A stretch of DNA of 64,000 bases from Candidatus Latescibacterota bacterium (GTDB lineage: Bacteria; Latescibacterota; CBDEFO01). Where the stretch lies: contig OZ252149.1 in the NCBI GenBank assembly GCA_965248755.1, forward strand, positions 3,232,001-3,296,000, in the 5' to 3' direction. Below, piece after piece: positions 3,453-61,294 of the stretch (the stretch's first letter is position 1; each line of letters opens with the position of its first letter). The notes under the pieces were generated by a model. It was not told the DNA's origin and did not search any database. It saw nothing but the letters and a program-made list of their open reading frames with translations. The translations under genes were made by a program, and so were the position numbers.

Positions 3453-3686
3453 TAACCCGAATAATTCACAAAAAAGGCCGTGTATTAATTAAGGGATTGT
3501 ATTATATTATAGTTATGCGGTTTAACCACCTTCGGTGTCATTGCGAGCCGAAGGCGAAGCAATCCCCCCGATAGATTTAATCGGGGGTTACTGTGGTAGA
3601 TGTAATACTCTCCGTCTCTCATAGAAGACCACTATAAGACCTTGAGATTGCTTCCCCGATAGACTCAATCGGGGTTTGGCAATGAC
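3453..3686. mobile_element. MITE-like element, copy 1 (lacks right inverted repeat)
   Basis: Close match to 11663-11917 and 61041-61294; begins TAACCCGAATAATTCACAAA. Confidence 0.7.
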
Positions 3687-4575: not shown

Positions 4576-5577
4576 TTAATCTTGAAACGCCTCTGAATCG
4601 GACAACGAACCTGAAATATCCAGATCTGGCATTGAGGTTGAGTTTCGCTCCCTCAGTATGTCTCGTCCCGATCTAACCGCTCGGTATCCGAATCGCTCTC
4701 GCAGAGAATCGACTGCTCCTTGAAAGCGCTCCTTTTTTTCAGTTTCGTTATCCCACAAGCTCAACTGGCGGGCTGCAGGGCTCAGGTTGCCGGCACCTAC
4801 ACCCAAGAGTCGCACAGCCTGTCCTGGACTCCAGAGCTTTTCAAAGAGACCCATCGCCTCACTGTAAATCCTAAAGTCCAGATCGGTCGGCTCTCTCAAT
4901 GCAACTTGCCGCGTTAAGGTGGTAAAATCGGGCCAGCGCAACTTCAACGTGACTTTGCGGCAACTTACGCCCTTCCACCTAAGTCTCCTTCCCACTACCT
5001 CAGACAAGACAAAGAGAGTTCCCTGGAGTACATCCCTGTCAGGAACGTCGTGTGAGAAGGTTGTCTCCTTGCTCATAGACTTTTCTTCCCTTGTGGTTTC
5101 AACAGGGCTGTCGTCGATGCCTCGTGCATAGAGCGCTAACCTCCAACCGTTCACCCCAAAACGCCGACCGAAGTATTCCTCAGGCCATCTGGCAAGATCC
5201 CCTATGGTGCTGAACCCAAGTTTTCGCAGGTAACGGGCTGTTTTTGTTCCGACCCCCCACAGCGCACTGATTGGAAGAGGTGCAAGGAAGGCCGCCTCCT
5301 GACCAGGCGGCACCACCGTAATGGCATTGGGTGGTTCGACCATTCCCTGCGGACCGTTCGTCTGAACCGATGCTTTACCGACATTGTTAGCGATCTTTGT
5401 AACTATCTTGTTGGTAGCAGCGCCCAATGAACATGGTAATCCAATGTTGTCCCGGATTGAGGTCTGTAATTTCCGAGCTAACACTCCTGCCGGCTCTGCG
5501 CTATGTGATAAATCCAGAAACGCTTCATCTACCGAAAATTTCTCAACAACTGGCGTCAATGCATACAGATGCTCAAT
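4576..5577 (-). pseudogene. dinB: DNA polymerase IV, C-terminal part of a split gene
   Basis: IEHLYALTPVVEKFSVDEAFLDL (SxDE motif), LWGVG, KSMSKETTF; begins exactly at the IS left end. Confidence 0.92.
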
Positions 5578-5605
5578 CCCCCATTCGCCATATTAGACCC
5601 GAAAA

Positions 5606-7003
5606 ATGGTTGTCAAAGTCGCCAGAACATGTTATATTACAATAAATAAGACTCATAAATGGCGGATAAATATTGATCATCCAGAGGGTGAAAGAATGAA
5701 AGTAGGTTTTGATGGAGGAATAAAGCTTGAATTTCATGGTGCAAAGGTGACATCAAACGGTGGACTTCTTGCGTATCGTGACCTTGATTACGCACTGGGA
5801 TTATTTGATTCGGTATCAGCGGTTTTTACCGATAAACGCACAGGCCGTAATATCCAACATGATATATCTACTCTCCTGCGTCAATCGATATACAGCCGTC
5901 TTGCAGGATATGAAGATGTAAATGACGCCGAGCGATTATCCGTTGATCCCGTCATGCGAGCGATTACCGGAAAGAAGGACAAAGGCAGGCAAGCTGCCAG
6001 CTCCAACACGATAGGACGTTTTGAAACTGATATACTGACTCAGCATGACAATCTCAGAAACTTGTCAGATATCAATGGCAAGTGGGTTCAAAAAGCGATG
6101 AGTAAAACACAGCATCAACGAATCATTCTGGACATGGACAGTTCGGAGAGTCCGGTACATGGCCAGCAGGAAGGATCAGCTTACAACGGTCATTTCGGAT
6201 GTACCTGTTTTCATCCAGTGTTCTGCTTCAATCAGTTCGGGGATTGTGAAGGAGTCCTACTTCGCTCTGGTAATGTTCACAGTGCTGATCGTTGGAAGGA
6301 AGTTCTGGAACCGATCGTCAAGAGATACGAGAGCAAGAAGAATAGGAAATACTTTCGAGGCGATGCTGCATTCGCAAAGCCTGAGATTTATGATTATCTG
6401 GAGGGAAACGGCTATTTGTATGCCATTCGGTTTCCCGCAAATGAGATACTCTATGAAAAGATACGATACCTGCTGACTCGGCCAGTTGGACGACCGCCGA
6501 GGAAACCGATTGTATCGTTATATGAATTTCAATATAAAGCGGCCAGTTGGGATCAATCGAGGCGAGTGGTCGCCAAGGTTGAATGGCACCAAGGGGAGTT
6601 ATTCCCAAGAGTGGGATTTATCGTGACCAACATGAGCGCCAAGCCAGAAGGCGTGGTACACTTCTACAATGGCCGTGGCAGAGCTGAGCAGTGGATTAAG
6701 GAGGGCAAGTATGCTCTGAACTGGACCCGACTCTCATGCAAGCGTTTCGTCTCCAATCAGGTGAGGCTCTGGCTGTTTGTTCTGGCTTACAACTTGGGCA
6801 ACTTCCTGCGACGTTTTGTTCTTCCGAAGAAAATCAAACACTGGTCACTACGCAGCCTCCTCGTGAAATTTATCAAAATCGGAGCGAAGATTGTCAGACA
6901 CAGCGGATATATTACGTTTCAAATGGCTGAGGTTGGGATAGACAAGAGGTTATTTGCCGAAATATTATCCCGGATTGAACGATTGCGATGTTATTCTGTT
7001 TAA
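5606..7003 (+). CDS. IS1380-family DDE transposase
   Basis: GYEDVND, LDMDSS, RGDAAF, YNGRGRAEQWIKEGK motifs. Confidence 0.95.
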   Translation: MVVKVARTCYITINKTHKWRINIDHPEGERMKVGFDGGIKLEFHGAKVTSNGGLLAYRDLDYALGLFDSVSAVFTDKRTGRNIQHDISTLLRQSIYSRLAGYEDVNDAERLSVDPVMRAITGKKDKGRQAASSNTIGRFETDILTQHDNLRNLSDINGKWVQKAMSKTQHQRIILDMDSSESPVHGQQEGSAYNGHFGCTCFHPVFCFNQFGDCEGVLLRSGNVHSADRWKEVLEPIVKRYESKKNRKYFRGDAAFAKPEIYDYLEGNGYLYAIRFPANEILYEKIRYLLTRPVGRPPRKPIVSLYEFQYKAASWDQSRRVVAKVEWHQGELFPRVGFIVTNMSAKPEGVVHFYNGRGRAEQWIKEGKYALNWTRLSCKRFVSNQVRLWLFVLAYNLGNFLRRFVLPKKIKHWSLRSLLVKFIKIGAKIVRHSGYITFQMAEVGIDKRLFAEILSRIERLRCYSV

Positions 7004-7112
7004 ACTGCCACATTTTTTTGTGAGTCGATGGAGAGGTGTCTCTAATTGGAGGATTTAAACACAAAGAAAGTGATAATTCAGAGGAAAATACTATTTTAAT
7101 TGAAAAAAGTAC

Positions 7113-7140
7113 TTGTTGAAAAATGTAAAAGTGGTAATAT
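7113..7140 (+). promoter_or_regulatory. Candidate outward-facing sigma70 promoter near the IS right end
   Basis: TTGTTG-N16-TAATAT with a TG extended -10; position analogous to the ISEcp1 outward promoter. Confidence 0.3.
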
Positions 7141-7654
7141 TAATTCAGAAACAAGAATGTATCGAAATATAATCCCTCATGAATGTGATATGGGGAATGT
7201 CGGTTGTACTCTATCTTGAATTTATAAAAACTCAAAAAAGTTTTGGATGTTTTGTCTCTCTCACGTATCTATAATACGACAGTGATATAAATTTCTCATA
7301 AAGTATTTGTAAAATAGTTGACAAATACTAAATATATGTAAAATAAATAAGATATGTCATCAAAGAAAGCTTGACAAAGCTTGGGAATTGTACTATACGT
7401 ATAACAGTTACTAACATTATCCTGATTAAGCAAAGAACTTGATGACTTCTATGCGGTGTCTTTCACGAATTCTACGTAACAGCTATAGGTAGTCCTAATT
7501 TGTTTGCTGAAAAGATACTGCTATTAACTTAAAGAACTTTCATGCCGGAAGGGGAAATAGTTTCAGGCAAAGGAAAGGAGGGAGCGAAACATCAGAAAAG
7601 AGCTCCTGTATAGCAGTTGATGGCATTGTTCTTGTAAGGAGGTGATGAAACAAA

Positions 7655-8287
7655 ATGAGAGGACGAGCAGTGAAACCTTCCACGGTTCTGGCTACGATAA
7701 CTTTCGTTATCTTGGGTATCGCTGCACAAATACACGCCCAGGTGTCCGCCCCAATTATCACTAATTACGTCAGAGCGGTTGCAGTCGAACCCGGAGGGAA
7801 CGCGGTCTATGTGGGTTTATACATTGCAAGGCGTATGGTCCGATTCGCATCAGAGGACGTGGGAAACGCCGACCCGCGCTCTTTGACCATAGCGATAGCC
7901 GCCAAGGACGCCTTTGACTTTCTCGGCTCCCCCGAGGGTGAACTTGCGCTCGCTCAAGCGGCAGTCTACCTTGCCACAGCCCCTAAGAGCAATTCTGTAT
8001 ACTCCGCATATCAGATGGCCCAGGAAGACGTCCAAAAAAGTCCCTCTTTGCCCGTCCCTCTCCACATTCGCAACGCCCCTACGCAACTTATGAAAGAACT
8101 CGGATACGGAAAGGGCTACAAATACGCCCACGATTCTGAGGAAAGCTACATAGCTCAGGAATATCTGCCCGACAATCTGGCAGGTGCCAAGTACTACTAC
8201 CCCACAGAACACGGATACGAAAAGAAGATAACGGAAATGATGAAATGGTGGGAGAGCCTTAAGCAGTCAGTAGACAGGAGTCAGTAG
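7655..8287 (+). pseudogene. rarA: Chimeric ORF: signal-peptide N-terminus of a secreted protein fused in frame to the RarA/MgsA C-terminal domain
   Basis: About 54 aa signal-peptide region, then LYIARRMVRFASEDVGNADP...PKSNS...LGYGKGYKYAHD; AAA+ domain absent; junction at 7815/7816. Confidence 0.85.
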
Positions 8288-8467
8288 CCCCCGATTGAAT
8301 CTATCGGGGCTAGACAGGGCACCGCCTACCATCCCCCTTTCCTAAGAAGACATCAGTTTTTCCTCTTCAACTTTCGCAGGAAATTGTAGGGGCGAGGTCC
8401 CCTCGCGCCAAGGACTGGGTCTCCCAGCCCCTACGAAACGTTGCTTGGAACAGGAGCACGAGGTAAA

Positions 8468-9523
8468 TTGCTCGTATCCGAATTCGACTACTATCTGCCG
8501 CAAGGACTCATCGCTCAATATCCCTTAGTGGAGCGGGGCGAATCCAGACTGATCGTCGTGGACAGGCAGCGCAAAAGCATAGATCACAGGCACTTCAAGG
8601 ATATAGTGGACTACATAAATCCAGGTGATTGTCTCGTCATCAACGATATAAAGGTCCTCCTGGCTCGGCTGATAGGAAAGAGAGTTGTCACAGGGGGCAA
8701 GATCGAAATTCTACTTCTGAAGAGATTGTCGGAATCTCCGCCCACCTGGTCGGTACTGGCAAAGCCAGGAAGGTTAGCCAGATTGAACGCTCAATTTGCC
8801 TTCGGGGAGAAAGATAACGCTCTAACTGGGGAAATTGTGGAGATCCAGCCGGACGGAATCAGGACTATGCGATTTGAATGTACAGGATCGTTTGAGCAGA
8901 AATTAGCTCAAATTGGACAGGTCCCGCTCCCTCCTTACATAAAAAGATCCTCTCCTTATGATCAGGACTTTCAAAGATACCAGACCGTCTACGCAAAAGT
9001 GGAGGGAGCAATCGCTGCTCCTACTGCCGGACTGCACTTCACAGATCATATCCTCGATAGAATAAGAAACAAGGGCGCATCTGTAGTCCCCCTAACCCTG
9101 CACGTTGGACTCGGTACGTTTGCACCCGTGAAGACAGAAAGAGTGGAAGACCACACGATGCACGAAGAGAAGTACCAGGTCTTGGAAGACGCCGCAACTA
9201 TTATCAATCGTAGAAAGGGAAAGGTCTTCGCCGTGGGTACGACTGTGCTCAGGACGCTGGAGTCAACATCCCACTGTGACGGATCTGTCCACCCCGGATC
9301 AGGAGAGACGGACTTATTTATCTATCCGGGCTATAAGTTTAAGGTCGCAGACGCTCTCTTGACGAACTTTCACCTCCCCAAGACCACTCTCCTTATGCTA
9401 GTCTGCGCCTTTGGTGGTGCGACCACTCCGTGTGGAAAAGATCTTATTTTCAAGGCCTACGAGGAGGCTATAGAGGAAAGATATAGATTTTACTCCTACG
9501 GAGACGCCATGCTGATCGTGTGA
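8468..9523 (+). CDS. queA: S-adenosylmethionine:tRNA ribosyltransferase-isomerase
   Basis: EFDYYLP, PLPPYI, AAPTAGLHF, TNFHLP, YRFYSYGDAM; TTG start after GAGG. Confidence 0.97.
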   Translation: MLVSEFDYYLPQGLIAQYPLVERGESRLIVVDRQRKSIDHRHFKDIVDYINPGDCLVINDIKVLLARLIGKRVVTGGKIEILLLKRLSESPPTWSVLAKPGRLARLNAQFAFGEKDNALTGEIVEIQPDGIRTMRFECTGSFEQKLAQIGQVPLPPYIKRSSPYDQDFQRYQTVYAKVEGAIAAPTAGLHFTDHILDRIRNKGASVVPLTLHVGLGTFAPVKTERVEDHTMHEEKYQVLEDAATIINRRKGKVFAVGTTVLRTLESTSHCDGSVHPGSGETDLFIYPGYKFKVADALLTNFHLPKTTLLMLVCAFGGATTPCGKDLIFKAYEEAIEERYRFYSYGDAMLIV

Positions 9524-9526
9524 TCG

Positions 9527-9835
9527 CTACCCTGTCTTTCCGAAGTTGTCCAGAAAGATCACAAAGTCGGACAGTCCGATCTCTCCATTACCATCTAAAT
9601 CAAATTTAGGATCCCAATTAGCCGAATCAGTCGTTGTCCCGAAAGCATCCAAGAAGAGGACAAAATCTGAAAGACCTACTTCCTTGTTCCCGTCAAAATC
9701 TCCTATAAGCGAAGTGGAAGAAGGCTGGTTGGCCTGCCCTAATGTCGGCTCAGCGACTACCCAGTCTGACGATTGATGGGGGAAGTTCCCATCTCCTACA
9801 TACTGAATAGACTGTCCGGTCGGAACACTTGTGGG
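9527..9835 (-). pseudogene. 3' fragment of a secreted protein ending in paired EF-hand/dockerin-like motifs
   Basis: Open frame PTSVPTGQ...PTLGQAN...GDFDGNKEVGLSDFVLFLDAFG...DLDGNGEIGLSDFVIFLDNFGKTG*; truncated exactly at the unit boundary. Confidence 0.8.
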
Positions 9836-10107
9836 TCAATACACTGTTCGGAGGCTTTCCCATATACCAGGTGTCGCCGGGGGACAATTACTAACTCAGG
9901 ACACAGTTTGACCGCTTGAGCCATCGGTATCCCTGAGCCTATACCGAACTTTCGAGCTGCATACGAGCAGGAAGCTACTATCCCTCGACTATCAGGTTGC
10001 GCACCTACAGCGAAGGCTACACCCTTAAGGGACGGATCGCGCTGCTCTTCCACGGCGCAGAAAAAGGCATCCAGGTCAAAGTGTAATATTTTACGATACA
10101 TAGGCAT
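9836..10107 (-). pseudogene. dinB: DNA polymerase IV, N-terminal part of a split gene
   Basis: ILHFDLDAFFCAVE, SCSYAARKFG motifs; homology ends at ...YGKASEQCI. Confidence 0.92.
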
Positions 10108-10609: not shown

Positions 10610-11183
10610 CTACGAACATCCGTTCGTAGGAACAGCAGTTGAGGCATTTGCAGCAAGATCCGTTCCTGACCATTTTCGCCCCGCACTCGTAGCAGGCAGG
10701 GGCGTCGGCCAGAGTCAGTAACACCTACTTTTCCCGCATCTCAACCTCTTTCATCGTCATCCCGTTTTCTCGGCGTGAGAGATCGGGTGCCGTATTCTTC
10801 CCGTTATCGCCCGGCTTCTAATCTTCTTGGGGCAGGAACTTTTTCCCCAACCATCTGAAGATATAATCTATAATAGACTCTGCCATTGGGATGTCAGGGT
10901 TGTTAGTAAAGCCCGCAGGATCAAAGCGCATGTGGCTGAACTTGTCCACCAACATCTTCAAAGGAACCCCGTACTGAAGCGCTATTGAGATCGCCGTAGC
11001 AAAGGAAGTCATAAGACCCGATACTACGGAGCCCTCCTTTGCTCCCAGTAAGAATATCTCCCCGGGAGATCCGTCCTCGTACATCCCCACAGTGATGTAC
11101 CCTTCGTATCCGCCCACACTGAACTTGTGCGTGATCGCATTCCGCTCGTGGGGAAGCTTCCTCCTGATATGAGCGTACTCCAT
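10610..11183 (-). pseudogene. Stand-alone class II ribonucleotide reductase C-terminal (TSCPD/NrdJb-like) gene, disrupted
   Basis: RRKLPHER..THKFSVGGYEGY..SIIDYIFRWL; after two TAG stops it continues DAPACYECG..RNGSCCKCLNC, with TNGCS* out of frame; own RBS AGGAGG. Confidence 0.8.
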
Positions 11184-11662: not shown

Positions 11663-11917
11663 TAACCCGAATAGTTTACAAAAAAAGGTTGTGTATTAAT
11701 TAAGGGATTGTATTATATTATAGTTATGTCGTTTAACCATCTTCGGTGTCATTGCGAGCCGTAGGCGAAGCAATCTCGATTCTGTGGTAGATGTAATACT
11801 CTCCGGCTCTCATAGGAGACCACTATAAAACCTTGAGATTGCTTCCCCGATTGATTCTATCGGGGACCGCTTTGCTCCTCGCAATGACTCCACCAAGTTT
11901 ATGAATTAATCGGGTTA
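11663..11917. mobile_element. MITE-like element, copy 2 (255 bp, ~20-bp imperfect terminal inverted repeats)
   Basis: TAACCCGAATAGTTTACAAA ... TTTATGAATTAATCGGGTTA; internal REP-like hairpins. Confidence 0.8.
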
Positions 11918-40452: not shown

Positions 40453-43400
40453 ATGAGAATGAAAAAGGATCACTTCATACAGATTCTGATTGGCACTTTC
40501 CTTTTGGGCTTTTGGATGTTTGGATTTGTCCCTTCAGTTGACGCTGCAGCGGGCATCATCTCTACCGTGGCAGGAAATGGCACTCCTGAATTTTCCGGTG
40601 ATGGTGGTCCAGCTACCAGTGCGAGCTTGACTTCTCCTCGTGGCGTATTCGTGGATGGATCGGGGGTTATCTATATTGCGGATGTGAACAATCACCGGAT
40701 ACGTAAGGTGGATACGTCGGGCATCATCTCTACCGTGGCAGGAAATGGCACTGCTGGGTTTTCCGGTGATGGTGATCCAGCCACCAGTGCGAGCTTGAGG
40801 GTCCCTCATCGCGTAGTCGTGGATGTATCGGGCAATATCTATATTGCTGATGAGCTCAATCACCGGATACGCAAGGTGGATACGTCTGGCATCATCAATA
40901 CCGTGGCAGGAAATGGCACTGCTGGATTTTCCAGTGATGGAGGTCCAGCTACCACTGCGAGCTTGAATTCTCCTAACGGCGTATTCGTGGATGGACTAGG
41001 CAATATCTATATTGCGGATCAGGGCAATCATCGGATACGCAAGGTGGATACGTCTGGCATCATCTCCACCGTGGCAGGAAATGGCCTTGCTAGTTTTTCC
41101 GGTGATGGTGGTCCAGCCACCAGTGCGCGCTTGAATAATCCTTTTGGCGTATTCGTGGATGGATTAGGCAATATCTATATTGCGGATCTGGACAATCATC
41201 GGATACGTAAGGTGGATACGTCTGGTAACATCTCCACCGTGGCAGGAAACGGCACTGCTACATTTTCCGGTGATGGTGGTCCAGCTACCAGTGCGAGTTT
41301 GAATGATCCTCATGACGTATTCGTGGATGGATTGGGCAATATCTATATTGCGGATAGGGGCAATCACCGGATACGTAAGGTGGATACGTCTGGCATCATC
41401 TCCACCGTGGCAGGAAATGGCCTTGCTAGTTTTTCCGGTGATGGTGGTCCAGCTACCAGTGCGAGCTTGATTTCTCCTGATGGCGTATTCGTGGATGGAT
41501 CGAGCAATATCTATATTGCGGATCTAGGCAATCACCGGATACGTAAGGTGGTGGAGCCTCCTCCTACTGTGACGTCCATTAATCCCACTTCCGGCACGGA
41601 ATTAGGTGGTACGGCTGTAACGATAAGGGGAAACAGTTTCCAGATCGGAGCGACTGTTACTTTCGACGGTAGCACAGCCGATAGTGTAGTCGTAGCGTCT
41701 GATAGCGTTATTACCGCTGTGACTCCCGCTCATGCTGCTGACACTGTTGACGTCATAGTCACAAATCCCAACGGTCTTTCAGATACGCTCTTTAACGAAT
41801 TTGAGTTTATTGCAGTTCCCCCTGTTGTGTCATCTATTGATCCTATTTCTGGTACGGAATTGGGCGGTACGCCTGTGACGATAGTGGGGGGCAATTTCAA
41901 GATCGGAGCGACTGTTGCTTTCGGAGATAGCTCAGCCACAAATGTAGTCGTGGTCTCCGCTGTCACCATTACCGCTGCGACTCCCGCTCATGCTACTGGC
42001 ACTGTGGATGTGGTAGTCACAAATCCCGATGGTTAACCAGACACGCTCTTTATCGGATTTACTTTTCTTCCTCATCCTGCTGTAGCATCTATTGATCCCA
42101 TTTCCGGTACGGAATTGGGAGGTACGCCTCTCACGATAAGGGGGAGCAGTTTCCAGAGCGGAGCGACTGTTGCTTTCGATGGTATCACAGCCGATAGTGT
42201 AGTCGTGGTATCTGATACCGTTATTACTGCCGTGACATCCGCTCACCCTGCCGACACTGTGGACGTGATAGTGACAAATCCCAACGGTCTGGCGGATACG
42301 CTCTTTAGCGGATTTGAATTTATTGCGGTTCCCCCTGTTGTATCATCTATTGATCCTATTTCCGGTACGAAATTGGGCGGGACACCTGTGACGATAAGGG
42401 GGATCAATTTCAAGATCGGAGTGACTGTCGGTTTTGACGATAGCTCAGCTACAAATGTAGTTGTAGTGTCTGATAGCATCATTACCGCTGCGACTCCTGC
42501 TCATCCTTCAGACACTGTGGACGTGATAGTCACAAATCCCGACAGTTTAGCAGATACGCTCTTTAATGGATATACCTTCCTTAATGCGATTCCACTCGCG
42601 AACGCGGGACTTGACCAGATAGTCAACGCAAATGCGGAAGTGGCGCTGGACGGTTCGGGAAGCAGCGACGCGGACGGGGATTCTCTGTCCTTCAACTGGA
42701 TGCAGATAGGTGGGACGGCAGTTTCGCTGTCGAGTGCGACGGCACAAAGGCCAACATTTCTTGCTCCCGCGATGGACTTTGCGGAGATATTCTCTTTCAA
42801 GTTGACTGTGGACGACGGTCTGGATGCGAGTCTCCCGGATACGGTCAACGTAGTCGTGGAGGGAACGGGACCTCCTCCTCCTGTACTGACGCCCGCGGGA
42901 CTTAATGCCCTGGGAGGGGATTCGGAGATACACCTTAGTTGGTCCCCGAACACCCAGGGCATCTTCGATCGCTTCATCGTGTACAGAAGCACAACGAGTG
43001 GCTTTGTTCCCACGCCCTCCGACTCCATAGCTGGCTCCACCACTAACATTTATACGGATGCGCCTCTATCCAACGGGACAAAGTACTACTACCGCGTCGC
43101 GGCGTTGGACTCGCTTGGAGGCAGGAGCGGCCTTTCGGACGAAGCGGATGCAACTCCCCTTGGGTTCACCTACGGAGACGATTTTGCCGATTTGGACGAC
43201 TGGATAATAGGCGAGGGTAGCTGGACTACAGGTTCTGCATTAGGGAGTTCAACAGGAAATGCGACTTTATGGAACAGGCTGAGCTTTGCCGGGGATACGA
43301 GAGTCAGATTTCAGGCTAACACTGTAGCCCCCGACAGCTCTAACATCAACGTTATTATCTATGGGAACGGATCGAGTGCAAACTCAGGATATAAGTTCAT

Positions 43401-46400
43401 ATTCGGAGGGGACGGCAACACCAGCACGAAGATACAGAGGCTCGGGTTCACGCTGGCCGAAAGGAACGACCTCAGGATCGTCCCAGGTGTTGCTTACAAC
43501 ATTCAGGTCGAAAAGGTGGGAAGCACTCTAAGGTTCTATATAAACGACAAGTTAGTTTTGGAGGATACGGATCACTCTCCCCTTGTGGAGACCCGTGTGG
43601 CTCTGAATACCTTCGCCTCGCACGTGCAGTTTAACAATATTCAGATCGCAGGGGATATAGGGACTGTCATAGTATATCCCTTCTTCGACGATATGGAAAG
43701 GGGCCCACGCACCTGGATGCCGGGCGGTACCTGGGCACAGACAACGGAGGACGCCCACAGCGGAAGCGTCAGCTGGACAGACAGCCCCGGCACTTCTTAT
43801 GCAACCAATGCGAGCGTTACCTTAACGTTGCCGATGACATTGGTCGGTGCATCCAGGCCCGAGTTGAGTTTCTGGCACAAGTATAGTCTTGAGCAGGCTA
43901 CCTCCGGCAATCAAGGAGATTTTGGCTATGTGCGCATTTCGTCTGACGCTGGCGCAAAATTTTTCTCTTATTACACGATAACTGGGGCAAGCGATTGGGT
44001 TCAGGAGAAGATAGATCTGACTCCGTGGAGAGGACGGGAGATACTTGTCCAATTCTGGCTCTGGACGGATAGCGATGCCACAGTTGGAGACGGATGGCAT
44101 ATAGACGATGTGAGTGTAGGCGAGACGGAGACACCTCCCTTGGGCGGACTGCCCTTTTTTGACGATGCCAACGACGACACGACCACCAATATGTACTGGC
44201 AATCGTCCACATTCGAGTTGATAGAAAGCGGGAGTTTTGACGGGAGTCAGTACTGGCACTCCAGTCCCAGGACGCAGAATCACAGTGGGCCCGCTGTCTA
44301 CCGTACATTTGCGCGTACGACCTTGGCAAATGAGATAGATTTGAATGGGACGATAAATCCTCAGTTAGTCTTCTGGCATTCTGTCAATCGGTATGGTGCT
44401 ACCTACTATGTTCAGATATCACAGGATGGTGGTCTCAACTGGTCTACTCTGTTTAGTACGACCACTAGTACCGGTTGGACGCAGAAGCAGTTGAATCTGT
44501 CGGGTTACATAAATCAGAAGATACGCATAAGGTTTTATGTATCGAATAGCTATTACACCGATCGCTGGCTTGTGGATAATGTGCGGATCAGGGAGGCTCC
44601 TGTGGATGTTGTGCTTCAGCCACCTGCGTTGATGCTGCCTGTGGACTTAGGACGTCACAATTTCCAGTTGACCTGGAGTAAGACACAAGATCCCAAGTTC
44701 TTGCGTTATGACGTCAGAAGGAACACGACTTCATCTGTGAGTAGGAGCAGCTCTTTGGTCTTTTCCTCTGCTGATCCTTCGGACACAAGTTTTGTAGATA
44801 TTCCGAGTGTTTCCGGGACGTATTACTATCGGGTCTTTTCGGAGGATTCGACCAATGTATTGAGTATAGGCAGCAACACTGTTTCTGGGACAAACACGTC
44901 AGCTGATGTCAGTTCATATCCGTTTTATGACGGTATGGAGGCTGGCTCCGGAAATTGGAATTGGGATCTACCCTGGGGAGTATCAGAGGGGGCAGCATAC
45001 ACCGACAGTCTCGGTTGGAGCGACAGCCCCGGGAAATTCTATGAGCCTAATGCCAGCAAGACCCTTACGCTTCCCATAAACCTACAGGGTTCAAATAAGC
45101 CCGAGTTGAGCTTCTGGCACAAGTATAGCCTTGAGCAGGCTACACCCAGCAATCAGGGGGATTTTGTCTACGTTCGCATTTCGTCTGATGGCGGGGCCAA
45201 CTTTTACCCTTATTATACGGAGACTGGGTCGAGCGATTGGGTCCATGAGAAGATAGACCTGACTCCCTGGAGGGGTCTGGTGGTCCTTGTTCAATTCTGG
45301 CTGTGGGCGGATGGAGATGCCGCAGTTGGGGACGGATGGTTCATAGACAATATAAGGATAGATGAGACGACCACCGGTCCCCTGGGCGGGATACCATTTT
45401 TTGACGATGTGAACGACGACACGACCACGAATATGTACTGGCAATCGTCCACATTCGAGTTGATAGAAGGCGGGAGCTTTGACGGGAGTCAGTACTGGCA
45501 CTCCAGTCCCAGGACTCAGAATCACAGTGGCTCCAGTGTCTACCGCACATTTGCGCGTATAACCTTGGCCAATGAGATAGATTTGACTGGTACACGAAAT
45601 CCTCAGTTAGTCTTCTGGCATTCTATCAATCGCTACGGCGCTACCTATTACGTGCAGATCTCACAGGACAACGGTGTCAATTGGTCTACTTTGTTTAGTT
45701 CGACCACAAGTACCGGCTGGACACAGCAGCAGTTAAATCTGTCAGGCTATATCAATCAGCAGGTACGCATAAGGTTTTATGTATCAAATAGCTATTACAC
45801 CGACCGCTGGATTGTGGACAATATATGGGTCAGGGAGGCCCCTGTGGATGTTGTTTTACAGGATCCTACGGAGATAGACCGCCATAGTCTCAGGATGACC
45901 TGGAGCAAGTCCCCAGATCCAAAGTTTCTGCGTTATGAGGTCAGAAGAAATACGAGTTCATCTGTAAGCAGGAGCAATACTTTGGCCTTTTCCTCGGTAG
46001 ATCCTTCGGACACCAGTTTCGTGGATGCGGTCACAGTTTCCGGAACGAACTATTATCGGGTCTTTGTTGTGGATTCGACCAATGTGGTCAGCTTGGGCAG
46101 TAACGTTGTCTCGGGGACAAACTTACTTGCCAGTCAGAGTTCGTATCCGCTTTACGACGGTATGGAGGAGGGTCCTTTCAATTGGAATTGGGATCTTCCC
46201 TGGGAGGTATCAAGTGAAGCTGCATACAGGGACAGCTTGGGCTGGAGCGACAGCCCCGGGAGATCCTACGCGACCAATGCCAGCAAGACTCTTACGCTTT
46301 CGATGAATCTTTCGCTATCCAACAAGCCACAGTTGAGCTTCTGGCACAAGTATAGTCTTGAGCAGGCTACACCCAGCAATCAGGGAGATTTTGGCTATGT

Positions 46401-49400
46401 GCGTATCTCTTCAGACGCTGGGGCAAACTTTTACCCTTATTACACGATAACTGGGGCAAGCGATTGGGTTCAGGAGAAGATAGATCTGACTCCGTGGAGG
46501 GGGCGGGAGATACTCGTGCAATTCTGGCTCAGGGCAGATAGCGATGCCACAGTTGGAAACGGATGGTTCATAGACGATATAAGGATAGATGAGACTACCA
46601 CAGGCCCGTTGGGAGGGCTGCCGTTCTTGGACGATGTGAACGACGACACGACCACAAATATGTACTGGCAATCGTCCACATTCGAATTGATAGAAAGCGG
46701 GAGTCATGATGGGAGTCAGTATTGGCACTCCAGTCCCAGGACTCAGAATCACAGTGGGTCGGGTTTCTACCGCACATTTGCACGTATGACGTTAGCCAAT
46801 GAGATAGATTTAACAGGGGCGCAGAACCCTCAGTTAGTCTTTAGGCATTCTATCAATCGCTATGGTGCAACCTACTATGTTCAGATATCGCAGGACGGGG
46901 GTCTCAATTGGGCTACTTTATTTAGCACTACGACCAGTACGGCTTGGGCGGAGAAGAAGCTGAGTTTGGCCGGTTACATAAATCAGAAGATACGAGTAAG
47001 GTTTTATATTTCCAACAGCTATTACACTGATCGCTGGCTTATAGATAATATACAGGTCAGGGAAGATCCTGCGGCTACGGCTATTGTGGATTTTGCAACG
47101 GTAGATTTCCCGAATGTTGCTTCCGCTGCGGTCGGGAACCCCACCGGAAGGATTTAGGGATCTGTCTTTGAGCCGGGGATAACCGACGCTACCGGCCAGG
47201 GTGCGGGCTTGATGGCTCAGTTGGGCTACGGTCCAGAGGGTGTCCAGCCGAGAGATTCCTCCTGGACATGGCCCGTAACGGCCACTTACCTGGGCGATTC
47301 GGGGAACAGAGATGTCTATTTCGGAATCTTGAACGTCGGGACTTTAGGCACCTTCGATTTCGCCTTCAGGTTCTCCATAAACGGCGGAGTCAACTGGATC
47401 TTTGCCGATACGGACGGGAACGACATAGGCTCTGGAGGGACGAACGGATACCGTGTAAATAAGGCCGGAAAGCTCGTAGTCACCGAGCGGCCGGAAATAT
47501 CTGTGAACGTGTCTGAGTTGGTTTTATCGCTGCCTGAGAACCTGACGGGCAACAGGGCGTTCGGGATCGAGAATAGTGGCGTCGGGTCGCTTGTGCTGAC
47601 CATAAGCGAGGCAGATACTCTGCCGCCCACGCCTACAGACGTGACGTGGATCTCCGTTGCGAGCAATCTGATAGTAAACGCCAATGAGAGGAAGAGCCTG
47701 GTGGTGACGTTCGATGCCACGGGAATGACCTCAGGCTCGATAGACACCGCTTATGTGGTGCTGGATACAAACGATCCTGATGAACCCAGGATCATAATCA
47801 GGGTGATACTCAGGGTCCTGGATCCCAGCGTTACACAGCTTGTGGGCCTCGTAAAAGATGTCTTTGGCCGTCCCGTGTCTCAATTGTCCGGTACCCTCGG
47901 TTCTGCTTTTGTGCCCTTCGCCACCATTCAGGTGTTCGACAGCGGCAGCCTAATTGCCGAGACGGCGGCAGGGGACGACGGGCTCTATGCGTTCTACGGC
48001 TTATCTACAGGTAATTACGACCTGAGAGCGTACGCCGATGGCTTCTTCCCGAGCCTTACAAAAGACCAGGTTGTTCCGGCCGCCGGGGCGAATATTACTA
48101 TGCATGGAGTCCATAAGATTGCACCCACCAGCCAGTGGGTCGACTTCTGGAGTCCGAACTCCTTCTATGGCGGCCAACCGATACAGAACGGCGACGTTGT
48201 ATCTGTCCGCGACCCTGACGGTGTGGTCGCTGGCACCTTTACCGTAAGGGCGGACAGTTCATACGGTTTCATGCCGGTCTACAGGGATGACATTACCACG
48301 CCTGAGGACGAGGGAGCAGAGCCCGGAGACACATTGAGCTTTTACGTCAACGACTTTATAGCGACAGTCGTGTCCGGTGACCCAGTGTGGAGGGCAGACG
48401 GGGCTATAGAGCAAGTCGATCTTTCCGCCGCAGAGCGGGATACGATGACATTAAGGAGCGGATTCAACCTTATTTCGTTCAACGTAGATCCCCCGGACAA
48501 GTCCGTGTCGGCGGTCCTTTCGACGATAGACGGCAAGTTCAATTTGGTCAGGGGCTTCGTAGGATCAGGACGAACCTACGTTCCGGGTATGGATCTGTTC
48601 AACACGTTGACCTCTATGGACGGTCTGCACGGATACTGGGTCAAGATGGATACGACGGCTCTTCTGACCGTAGAGGGCCAGAAGATATACGACGATACGT
48701 TCCTTTCTCTTGCAGGGGGGTGGAACTCTCTAAGCTATCTCCCTGAGACTCCTGATTCCACAGAGTCGGCGCTGTCTTCGATAATAGGTCTAATAGGAGT
48801 GGTTAGCGGGTTCGAGGATGGCGCTATGACGTTTGTCCCCGGAAGCCCGTTCAACGATCTTACTCTTATGAAAAATAACCTCGGATATTTCATAAGGACG
48901 ATAGCGCCTACTGCTCTCAACTATCGGATCAAAGGTGCTCCCTCGGCGAAGTTTCTTCCCGGTCCGGATATTATAGCATATCAACCTGAGGGAGTCAACC
49001 CCCGATTAAATCTCTCGGGGGTGAACCCCACCGTCTGGTGGTCTGACTACTACGGATCTGTAACTATGAACGGATCCGATCTTCCCGCAGGGTCCATTAT
49101 AGAGGCCTACGATCCTGATGGGGTAAAGGCTGGAGAGTTTGTGATTGACAATGACGGTCTCTTCGGCTTTATGCCTGTCTACGGCGACGATCCGAGCACA
49201 TCGATAGACGAAGGAGCAGAGCCCGGAGATGTCATAAGCTTCTATTTTGATGGGCGTTTGATTGCAAAGACGGACGGTGAGAAAGTGAGATGGTTTTCAG
49301 GGGGCGAGATAAACAGGCTCGACATAGTCTTTGAAAGCGCCGGCCATGCTCTCGGCGAATCGGGGGCACCCAGGGAATACGACCTCTATCAGAACTTCCC

Positions 49401-59402: not shown

Positions 59403-61028
59403 CCCCCATTCGCCATATTAGACCCGAAAAATGGTTGTCAAAGTCGCCAGAACATGTTATATTACAATAAATAAGACTCATAAATGGCGGATAAATATTG
59501 ATCATCCAGAGGGTGAAAGAATGAAAGTAGGTTTTGATGGAGGAATAAAGCTTGAATTTCATGGTGCAAAGGTGACATCAAACGGTGGACTTCTTGCGTA
59601 TCGTGACCTTGATTACGCACTGGGATTATTTGATTCGGTATCAGCGGTTTTTACCGATAAACGCACAGGCCGTAATATCCAACATGATATATCTACTCTC
59701 CTGCGTCAATCGATATACAGCCGTCTTGCAGGATATGAAGATGTAAATGACGCCGAGCGATTATCCGTTGATCCCGTCATGCGAGCGATTACCGGAAAGA
59801 AGGACAAAGGCAGGCAAGCTGCCAGCTCCAACACGATAGGACGTTTTGAAACTGATATACTGACTCAGCATGACAATCTCAGAAACTTGTCAGATATCAA
59901 TGGCAAGTGGGTTCAAAAAGCGATGAGTAAAACACAGCATCAACGAATCATTCTGGACATGGACAGTTCGGAGAGTCCGGTACATGGCCAGCAGGAAGGA
60001 TCAGCTTACAACGGTCATTTCGGATGTACCTGTTTTCATCCAGTGTTCTGCTTCAATCAGTTCGGGGATTGTGAAGGAGTCCTACTTCGCTCTGGTAATG
60101 TTCACAGTGCTGATCGTTGGAAGGAAGTTCTGGAACCGATCGTCAAGAGATACGAGAGCAAGAAGAATAGGAAATACTTTCGAGGCGATGCTGCATTCGC
60201 AAAGCCTGAGATTTATGATTATCTGGAGGGAAACGGCTATTTGTATGCCATTCGGCTTCCCGCAAATGAGATACTCTATGAAAAGATACGATACCTGCTG
60301 ACTCGGCCAGTTGGACGACCGCCGAGGAAACCGATTGTATCGTTATATGAATTTCAATATAAAGCGGCCAGTTGGGATCAATCGAGGCGAGTGGTCGCCA
60401 AGGTTGAATGGCACCAAGGGGAGTTATTCCCAAGAGTGGGATTTATCGTGACCAACATGAGCGCCAAGCCAGAAGGCGTGGTACACTTCTACAATGGCCG
60501 TGGCAGAGCTGAGCAGTGGATTAAGGAGGGCAAGTATGCTCTGAACTGGACCCGACTCTCATGCAAGCGTTTCGTCTCCAATCAGGTGAGGCTCTGGCTG
60601 TTTGTTCTGGCTTACAACTTGGGCAACTTCCTGCGACGTTTTGTTCTTCCGAAGAAAATCAAACACTGGTCACTACGCAGCCTCCTCGTGAAATTTATCA
60701 AAATCGGAGCGAAGATTGTCAGACACAGCGGATATATTACGTTTCAAATGGCTGAGGTTGGGATAGACAAGAGGTTATTTGCCGAAATATTATCCCGGAT
60801 TGAACGATTGCGATGTTATTCTGTTTAAACTGCCACATTTTTTTGTGAGTCGATGGAGAGGTGTCTCTAATTGGAGGATTTAAACACAAAGAAAGTGATA
60901 ATTCAGAGGAAAATACTATTTTAATTGAAAAAAGTACTTGTTGAAAAATGTAAAAGTGGTAATATTAATTCAGAAACAAGAATGTATCGAAATATAATCC
61001 CTCATGAATGTGATATGGGGAATGTCGG
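59403..61028 (+). mobile_element. IS1380-family insertion sequence, copy 2, with 5-bp target duplication ATGAA
   Basis: Same inverted repeats as copy 1; ATGAA at 59398-59402 and 61029-61033. Confidence 0.97.
59431..60828 (+). CDS. IS1380-family DDE transposase
   Basis: Differs from copy 1 protein at one residue (AIRLPAN vs AIRFPAN). Confidence 0.95.
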   Translation: MVVKVARTCYITINKTHKWRINIDHPEGERMKVGFDGGIKLEFHGAKVTSNGGLLAYRDLDYALGLFDSVSAVFTDKRTGRNIQHDISTLLRQSIYSRLAGYEDVNDAERLSVDPVMRAITGKKDKGRQAASSNTIGRFETDILTQHDNLRNLSDINGKWVQKAMSKTQHQRIILDMDSSESPVHGQQEGSAYNGHFGCTCFHPVFCFNQFGDCEGVLLRSGNVHSADRWKEVLEPIVKRYESKKNRKYFRGDAAFAKPEIYDYLEGNGYLYAIRLPANEILYEKIRYLLTRPVGRPPRKPIVSLYEFQYKAASWDQSRRVVAKVEWHQGELFPRVGFIVTNMSAKPEGVVHFYNGRGRAEQWIKEGKYALNWTRLSCKRFVSNQVRLWLFVLAYNLGNFLRRFVLPKKIKHWSLRSLLVKFIKIGAKIVRHSGYITFQMAEVGIDKRLFAEILSRIERLRCYSV

Positions 61029-61040
61029 ATGAATGTATTT

Positions 61041-61294
61041 TAGCCCAAATAATTCACACAAAAAGGACGTGTATTAATTAAGGGATTGTATTATATTATA
61101 GTTATGCTGTTTAAGGCCTTCGGTGTCATTGCGAGCCGAAGGCGAAGAAATCTCGATTCTGTGGTAGATGTAATACTCTCCGGCTCTCATAGGAGACCAC
61201 TATAAAACCTTGAGATTGCTTCCCCGGTAGACTCAATCGGGGACCGCTTTGCTCCTCGCAATGACTCCACCAAGCTTATGAATTAATCGGGTTA
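61041..61294. mobile_element. MITE-like element, copy 3
   Basis: Matches 11663-11917; ends ATGAATTAATCGGGTTA. Confidence 0.8.

What the first reader, a model, noticed from the sequence alone, without database searches (positions are those of the whole stretch)
5573..9840. IS1380 one-ended transposition unit carrying chromosomal genes, inserted into dinB
Seen: IS copy 1 has no adjacent duplication, but TCAAT flanks the whole 4,258-bp segment 5578-9835. Removing the segment and one TCAAT rejoins dinB in frame (...YGKASEQCIEHLYALTPVVEKFSVDEAFLD...). The same IS makes a 5-bp duplication at copy 2 (ATGAA). The segment's right end (ACTTGTGGG) mimics the IRR terminus (AATGTCGG) and cuts a passenger gene mid-ORF. 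Known: ISEcp1, also IS1380 family, mobilises downstream DNA using weak alternative IRRs with 5-bp duplications. Inference: the same mechanism is acting here on housekeeping DNA in an environmental lineage, as a genome-shuffling system.
Basis: partly seen in the sequence, partly recalled or inferred. Interest (0 to 1): 0.88.

Follow-up and report, generated by a model that had tools for sequence, protein, structure and literature searches.

The report
Nested IS1380 gene-capture unit in dinB
A jumping gene overshot its own right-hand end, copied 2.6 kb of neighbouring chromosome with it and landed in a DNA-repair gene; the mechanism is already known from resistance-gene elements, but here it accounts for more than half of the element's copies in one chromosome.

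Summary
A 1,626-bp IS1380-family element plus a 2,632-bp passenger (5578-9835) sits in dinB between two TCAAT copies. A same-genus genome has the intact 422-aa gene in exact register. The donor is still in the chromosome, 100% identical and continuing into the full-length gene that the unit cuts. The unit is nested: the donor is itself IS+612 bp inserted in the only rarA gene (TTTAT duplication). Of 47 full-length copies, 17 are plain insertions, 26 carry passengers (58-5,734 bp) closed by a remote duplication, and 4 are ambiguous or have adjacent deletions. The 18 distinct alternative ends share T at -6 (18/18) and A/T at -7 (18/18). This is the known ISEcp1/ISPme1 transposable-module mechanism, and the scan has noted it before (23 findings, at least 20 genomes). 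What is added is the scale in one chromosome, retained donors and a sharp end rule. New member of a known kind.

The parts
4576..5577 (-). dinB (DNA polymerase IV) 3' part, 332 codons
   Evidence: Pfam IMS_C, IMS, IMS_HHH; 92% identical to G001 DinB residues 91-422
5573..5577 (+). left copy of the 5-bp target duplication TCAAT
   Evidence: overlap of the two dinB halves against G001
5578..7203 (+). IS1380-family insertion sequence, 1,626 bp; 47 full-length copies at 99.8% or more in the genome
5578..5595 (+). left inverted repeat (18 bp, 14 of 18 complementary to the IRR)
5696..7003 (+). DDE transposase, 435 aa (an in-frame upstream ATG lies at 5606)
   Evidence: NCBIfam NF033539 385.2 bits, cut-off 180; PF13701 427.2 bits
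7144..7173 (+). candidate outward-facing promoter (10 of 12 consensus); not shown to function
   Evidence: 13 sites in the region against 6.8 +/- 2.5 in shuffles
7186..7203 (+). genuine right inverted repeat, bypassed in this unit
7204..7815 (+). first passenger, 612 bp: upstream region and first 54 codons of a BNR-repeat (beta-propeller-type) gene; ends at alternative end 1 (8 of 14 matches to the IRR)
   Evidence: 85% to G001 L020:7759-8381; Pfam Sortilin-Vps10/PSII_BNR/BNR on the G001 protein; end table
7655..8287 (+). chimeric ORF, 210 aa: hydrophobic N-terminus of the BNR-repeat protein fused in frame to the C-terminal 155 aa of RarA/MgsA
   Evidence: MgsA_C on residues 55-199
7816..7820 (+). 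TTTAT: right copy of the older duplication made when IS+612 bp entered rarA at the donor
   Evidence: the G001 rarA match begins exactly here
7816..9835 (+). second passenger, 2,020 bp: rarA 3' part, queA, 3' end of a convergent gene
   Evidence: 100% identical to donor G000:3852012-3854031
8441..9523 (+). queA, complete; now two identical copies in the genome
   Evidence: NCBIfam NF001140 431.6 bits, cut-off 324
9527..9835 (-). last 102 codons of a 244-aa gene with two DxDxDG-type repeats at its end (EF-hand/dockerin-like by inspection; no Pfam match)
   Evidence: full gene at donor L016:7724-8458; 0 Pfam families
9822..9835 (+). alternative right end 2 (5 of 14 matches to the IRR; T-T at -7/-6; ends in GG)
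9836..9840 (+). right copy of the target duplication TCAAT
9836..10107 (-). dinB 5' part, 90 codons, running out of frame into the passenger to a stop at 9796
   Evidence: Pfam IMS; 91% identical to G001 residues 1-90
59403..61028 (+). IS copy 2, plain insertion with ATGAA duplication; itself the donor of an IS+4,788-bp unit at G000:1758445

Best explanation
An active IS1380-family element makes transposable modules. Its DDE transposase pairs the left inverted repeat either with the true right repeat or with a weak downstream site, and inserts IS plus passenger at an A+T-rich 5-bp target, leaving the donor in place. History of this unit. (1) An IS copy sat upstream of a BNR-repeat gene (inferred; the remnant is probably G000:834366). 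(2) IS+612 bp inserted into the only rarA gene with a TTTAT duplication (shown). (3) From there IS+2,632 bp was copied into dinB with a TCAAT duplication, and IS+966 bp into a primase-polymerase gene with CTTTA (shown). Outcome: this dinB and rarA are split, queA is duplicated, and a fusion ORF is created. Shown: boundaries, donors, empty sites, end consensus. Inferred: transposase action, order of step 1, and whether the donor is kept by replicative copying or by cut-and-paste followed by repair from a sister chromosome.
For: Donor identical over 4,258 of 4,258 bases, with divergence exactly at the TCAAT copy. Intact dinB and rarA in G001. 26 of 47 copies show a passenger closed by a remote duplication: 24 with ends fixed by divergence from an in-genome copy, 1 by G001 rarA, 1 by continuity with a paralogue. 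18 distinct ends: mean 5.8 of 14 matches to the IRR against 3.5 background, T at -6 in 18/18, A/T at -7 in 18/18 (0.144 per site by chance); leave-one-out median percentile 0.994. The held-out end at 3782900 also fits. Targets are 79% A+T. The three rarA-lineage units share the IS allele 854T, found in 5 of 47 copies. Contigs of run X2 break at 5603, 8170 and 9835, bridge 7815/7816, and have depths 11 and 7.7 (flanks), 18.5 (two copies), 32.2 (three copies) and about 360 (IS). The mechanism is described in PMC9330008 section 7.3, PMC12116815 and PMC9601100 (passages).
Against: No experiment and no raw reads. Runs X2/X3 are contigs and may be the source sample; they overlap the two dinB junctions by only 26 and 30 bases on the short side, under the tool's 31-base bar, and 22 joints were not displayed. 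The first 612-bp passenger has no exact source left: 834366 is identical for 189 bp, then diverges. IS alleles do not always follow donor-child links: donors with 121C have children with 121G, and 1699345 has 854T although its donor has 854C, so IS bodies also recombine or were blurred in assembly. A register shifted 2 bases inward matches the IRR almost as well (5.6 against 5.8). One end (2485091) fits the -6 rule only when read as a 6-bp duplication; with the 5-bp reading T at -6 is 17/18.
Confidence: 0.93

Rival explanations
1. Assembly chimera: 47 near-identical repeats were mis-joined, duplicating flanks.
For: The genome is a single contig with an untrimmed 7.2-kb terminal overlap and small homopolymer differences between duplicated stretches; 4.76% contamination. 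No raw reads could be laid.
Against: Mis-joins occur inside a repeat and cannot place each copy's own left 5-mer at a passenger end thousands of bases away (about 0.005 per copy, seen 24 times). Separately assembled contigs branch at 8170 and 9835 with stepped depths. Empty sites match G001 to the base.
Confidence: 0.02
2. A plain IS insertion in dinB later gained the passenger by homologous recombination with the donor IS plus an illegitimate join at the right.
For: IS alleles are discordant between some donors and children, and two copies show adjacent deletions, so recombination among copies occurs.
Against: The illegitimate join would have to stop exactly at the old duplication in 26 cases, and it would not give ends with invariant T at -6. 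No microhomology: the donor continues with different bases after the cut.
Confidence: 0.03
3. The units are real, but some passengers, including the first 612 bp, were captured in a related strain and imported, not copied within this chromosome.
For: The 612-bp piece has no exact source and matches the G001 orthologue over its whole length (85%). The 979-bp passenger at 3782900 is 95% like G001 over 698 bp but 92% like this genome's own copy over 744 bp. Capture during natural transformation is shown for ISEcp1 (PMC12116815, passages).
Against: Does not apply to the dinB step, whose donor is present and identical. 834366 lies at the position syntenic with the G001 gene and shares the first 189 bp exactly, which favours later rearrangement of a native donor.
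Confidence: 0.2

Closest known systems
Transposable modules (TMos) of ISPme1 and IS1247a, IS1380 family, Paracoccus (PMC9330008 section 7.3 and PMC3281130, passages; the primary paper PMC2347374 was not held)
   Same: One IS copy moves variable lengths of DNA next to its 3' end; end misrecognition; 5-bp duplication listed for IS1247; non-resistance DNA; replicative mode suggested for ISPme1.
   Different: Here a natural record of 26 units among 47 copies in one chromosome, with nested generations and donors in place.
ISEcp1 (ISEc9) transposition units (PMC12116815, PMC9601100, bioRxiv 10.1101/616961; passages)
   Same: 5-bp duplication next to the IRL and an imperfect right end with 3-12 matching bases (here 3-8 of 14); segmental duplication within a genome; insertion into chromosomal genes.
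   Different: Passengers are housekeeping, metabolic and regulatory genes. The terminal G proposed as crucial is absent from 8 of 18 ends here. The two published ISEcp1 alternative ends seen in these passages do not have T at -6, so the rule found here may be specific to this element.
IS1380 element of Sphingobium herbicidovorans MH (PMC5737581, passage)
   Same: Environmental bacterium; the IS and adjacent non-resistance genes were placed in several identical copies in the chromosome.
   Different: About four to five copies from one donor, with no end analysis in the passage seen.
IS1380 burst in Acetobacter pasteurianus (PMC2761278, passages)
   Same: High copy number (74) with many truncated genes.
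   Different: Passenger capture is not mentioned in the passages seen.

Membership tests
IS1380 family | IS1380-type DDE transposase | tested here: met
   NF033539 385.2 bits against cut-off 180; PF13701 427.2 bits; one stop-free frame in 47 of 47 copies
IS1380 family | About 1.6-1.7 kb with short imperfect terminal inverted repeats | tested here: met
   1,626 bp; 14 of 18 complementary; IS1247 is 1,672 bp with 16/13 IRs (PMC3281130)
IS1380 family | 4-5-bp target duplication | tested here: met
   Of 17 plain copies, 15 have 5 bp, 1 has 4 bp and 1 has 6 bp; family value from PMC12116815
TMo / ISEcp1-type transposition unit | Single IS copy with the passenger on its 3' (IRR) side | tested here: met
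   All 26 units; no IS sequence at the right end of this unit
TMo / ISEcp1-type transposition unit | Duplication flanks the IRL and the far end of the passenger | tested here: met
   TCAAT here; 26 of 47 copies
TMo / ISEcp1-type transposition unit | Variable end points from one donor | tested here: met
   Donor 755330 gave 58, 186 and 1,243 bp; 921841 gave 98, 321 and 397 bp; 3849774 gave 966 and 2,632 bp
TMo / ISEcp1-type transposition unit | Alternative end weakly like the IRR (3-12 of 14 bases) | tested here: met
   3-8 of 14, mean 5.8 against 3.5 background
TMo / ISEcp1-type transposition unit | G at the 3' end of the alternative repeat (proposed as crucial for ISEcp1B) | tested here: inconclusive
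   Met for this unit; enriched but present in only 10 of 18 ends (p 0.005)
TMo / ISEcp1-type transposition unit | Strong outward promoter driving the passenger | tested here: inconclusive
   One 10/12 consensus site at 7144-7173; no RNA data were examined
TMo / ISEcp1-type transposition unit | Transposase-dependent mobilisation shown by experiment | not testable with these tools
   Needs a transposition assay
Composite transposon | Second IS copy closing the unit | tested here: not met
   No match to this IS near window 9835
IS91 / ISCR rolling-circle capture | Tyrosine-type transposase and no target duplication (PMC9330008) | tested here: not met
   DDE family match and 5-bp duplications

The most novel reading that the evidence does not exclude
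For this element, skipping the true right end is the usual mode (26 of 43 resolved insertions). The end is chosen by a minimal A/T-T contact 7-6 bases inside the cut, not by overall likeness to the IRR: near-perfect mimics (12 of 14, and an 11-base perfect match) were passed over. With donors kept, the chromosome is a ready natural library for the unsolved IS1380 pathway and shows iterative capture building fusion genes.
Probability: 0.4. Interest if true: 0.6.

Novelty: new member of a known kind. Interest (0 to 1): 0.38.

Why it matters
[quoted passage not shown] This genome offers 18 distinct independently delimited ends, 24 donor-child pairs with the donor still in place, and a testable base rule. 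No PDB chain matched the transposase at E 0.01 or better. It also shows the cost and product of such a burst: rarA lost, one dinB lost, queA and about 36.5 kb of DNA duplicated (25 units), and a fusion ORF.

Tried and rejected
Terminal GG as the end rule: rejected as sufficient (7 of 18 ends). ORF continuity across rejoined sites as a way to find ends: too many chance hits; it wrongly favoured an end at 257 bp for copy 3959959, which G001 shows to be a native site with about 507 bp deleted. Copy 2982012 was first counted as a unit (1,327 bp) and dropped from all counts after G001 showed its downstream DNA largely collinear. Copy 1274927 could not be resolved with G001. The 608-bp and 6,154-bp candidate ends for 834366 were rejected: they lie in native sequence. 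Bases just outside the cut show no pattern. The transposase matched at E 1e-60 in 9 of 121 genomes of the phylum sample, own genome included; G059 was looked at but not analysed for units. Seven literature searches listed no paper on this lineage's IS1380 or on a -7/-6 rule; most subscription papers are not held, and the primary ISPme1 paper could not be read, so this is weak evidence of absence. No supplements were opened; end alignments there could bear on the rule.
Full report
Observation. The window is G000:3232001-3296000 of a 4.54-Mb single contig with a 7.2-kb terminal overlap, so probably a closed chromosome. TCAAT lies at 5573-5577 and 9836-9840. The IS is 5578-7203. Its 435-aa ORF is an IS1380 transposase (NF033539 385.2 bits, cut-off 180), and its ends are 14 of 18 complementary. 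The flanks are the two halves of dinB. Same-genus genome G001 has an intact 422-aa DinB. The halves cover its residues 1-90 and 91-422 with no gap and overlap by the five duplicated bases. A second, intact dinB (396 aa) remains elsewhere in G000.

Donor and nesting. The whole 4,258-bp segment is identical to G000:3849774-3854031, which continues into the full 244-aa gene convergent to queA. That donor is itself a unit: IS plus 612 bp, flanked by TTTAT, inside rarA between radC and queA. G001 has rarA intact (463 aa) in the same gene order. G000 has only split or partial MgsA_C matches, 4 in all, against 1 whole match in G001. A third copy, 1891550, took 966 bp from the same donor into a primase-polymerase gene with CTTTA. 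The 612-bp piece is the upstream region and first 54 codons of a BNR-repeat gene, fused in frame to the RarA C-terminus as a 210-aa ORF. Its exact source is gone. Copy 834366 sits at the position syntenic with the G001 gene, shares the first 189 bp exactly and then resembles a paralogue, and its left side has been cut into an FliI-like ATPase gene. I infer that it is the rearranged first donor.

Genome-wide census. There are 47 full-length copies at 99.8% or more; the partial copy in the terminal overlap, one 93% copy and the remnants listed were left out. 17 of 47 have an adjacent duplication (15 of 5 bp, 1 of 4, 1 of 6). 26 of 47 have a passenger closed by the left-flank duplication: 24 where the end coincides with divergence from another copy, 1 fixed by G001 rarA, and 1 (3782900, 979 bp) fixed by continuity with a paralogue at 962156/962157. 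Eight of the 26 carry the same 186-bp passenger and may be re-transpositions of one unit. Two copies are ambiguous (1274927, 2982012) and two have adjacent deletions (834366; 3959959 with about 507 bp). Passengers of 25 units run from 58 to 5,734 bp, 36.5 kb in all, and hold whole genes such as a periplasmic binding protein, SDR, PfkB kinase, response regulator, histidine kinase, oxidoreductase, methyltransferase, PQQ dehydrogenase and an integrase (13 proteins scanned). Second-generation units besides this one are 3008331, 3743374 and probably 2711395. Window copy 2 is the donor of a 4,788-bp unit.

End rule. The ends were fixed by divergence and duplication, not by likeness to the IRR. Among 18 distinct ends, T is at -6 in 18 and A/T at -7 in 18, as in both true ends (chance 0.144 per site); GG closes 7 and G closes 10; matches to the IRR are 3-8 of 14. 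One end fits only as a 6-bp duplication, a reading required by its donor's next base. A leave-one-out profile ranks the true end at a median percentile of 0.994 within its passenger, 0.983 for this unit, and the held-out end at 0.991. Better IRR mimics were often passed over, including a 12-of-14 site and an 11-base perfect match in donor 921841. A register 2 bases inward matches the IRR nearly as well, so which IRR bases the rule mirrors is open. Targets are 79% A+T, with T at position 2 in 35 of 41 and A at position 4 in 26 of 41 (that table still included 2982012).

Artefact check. Only contigs were available. In run X2 one contig runs unbranched from dinB 26 bases into the IS, one bridges 7815/7816 and stops at 8170, one stops at 9835, and one runs from 9806 into the dinB 5' part. 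Depths are 11, 32.2, 18.5 and 7.7, and about 360 on the IS, matching copy numbers of 1, 3, 2, 1 and tens. X2 and X3 may be the source sample, so this is an independent assembly, not an independent sample. A 5,225-bp contig of another study (X6) matches from exactly 7816 and runs on beyond it, as an uninterrupted rarA would (inferred; its further letters were not seen).

Mechanism. Established for the family: a single IS1380 element moves adjacent DNA by end misrecognition (PMC9330008 section 7.3, passages), with 5-bp duplications and ends sharing 3-12 bases with the IRR (PMC12116815, passages), and gives segmental duplications (PMC9601100, passages). Shown here: boundaries, donors, empty sites and end consensus. 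Inferred: that this transposase did it, and that the donor survives by copying or by repair. At least 24 of at most 30 passenger-bearing copies have their donor in place, which limits the bias of finding units through their donors. IS alleles agree with the rarA lineage (854T) but not with several other pairs.

Comparison and novelty. It meets the tested features of an IS1380-family transposable module and fails those of composite transposons and IS91-type elements. Environmental, non-resistance cases are in print (PMC5737581, passage; Paracoccus, PMC3281130, passages). High IS1380 copy numbers are too (74 in Acetobacter, PMC2761278, passages). This scan has 23 earlier findings in at least 20 genomes, one of them nested (unchecked AI notes). 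Verdict: real, well supported, a new member of a known kind; its value lies in the number of events and the end rule.

Noticed in passing
IS position 121 (window 5698 equivalent), 10 of 47 copies: G>C turns the likely start ATG into ATC; the frame stays open from the upstream ATG. 7 of the 10 are plain insertions, and four of the ten are donors or children whose partners carry the other allele.
   Followed up: partly
G000:833334-834365 and G001 L020:8967-9377: The FliI-like ATPase gene is cut at the IS left end, and the G001 protein that resembles FlgB by inspection (no Pfam match) has no tblastn hit in G000. G001 lacks the neighbouring cluster at the syntenic place. A flagellar-type locus seems to be decaying in both genomes.
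   Followed up: partly
G000:2703516 and 2711395: Two different units inserted at the same CTGAC site of another multicopy element: a target hot spot.
   Followed up: no
G000:3746991-3751933: A plain IS copy (4-bp duplication) later landed inside the passenger of another unit.
   Followed up: yes
G000:3782900 downstream 979 bp: The passenger is closer to G001 (95%) than to this genome's own copy (92%), a possible import from a related strain.
   Followed up: partly
window 2225-62695, 10 or more sites: A 24-27-bp palindromic repeat family is scattered between genes, including at 8282-8309 inside the passenger; noted before in e1-1524658.
   Followed up: no
window 3470-3674, 11681-11917, 61059-61294: A repeat of about 250 bp, with many copies in G000 and G001, that looks like a small non-autonomous element.
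   Followed up: no
window 40552-42627 and 43669-46622: Tandem coding-type repeats with periods of 168, about 257 and about 1,235 bp, probably a large repeat surface protein.
   Followed up: no
G001 L018, L019, L020: The relative has its own bursts of other IS types at orthologous places (after dinB, between rarA and queA), while its copies of this IS1380 are decayed.
   Followed up: partly
window 10818-11183: A stand-alone 121-aa TSCPD-domain ORF next to dinB, also present in G001.
   Followed up: no
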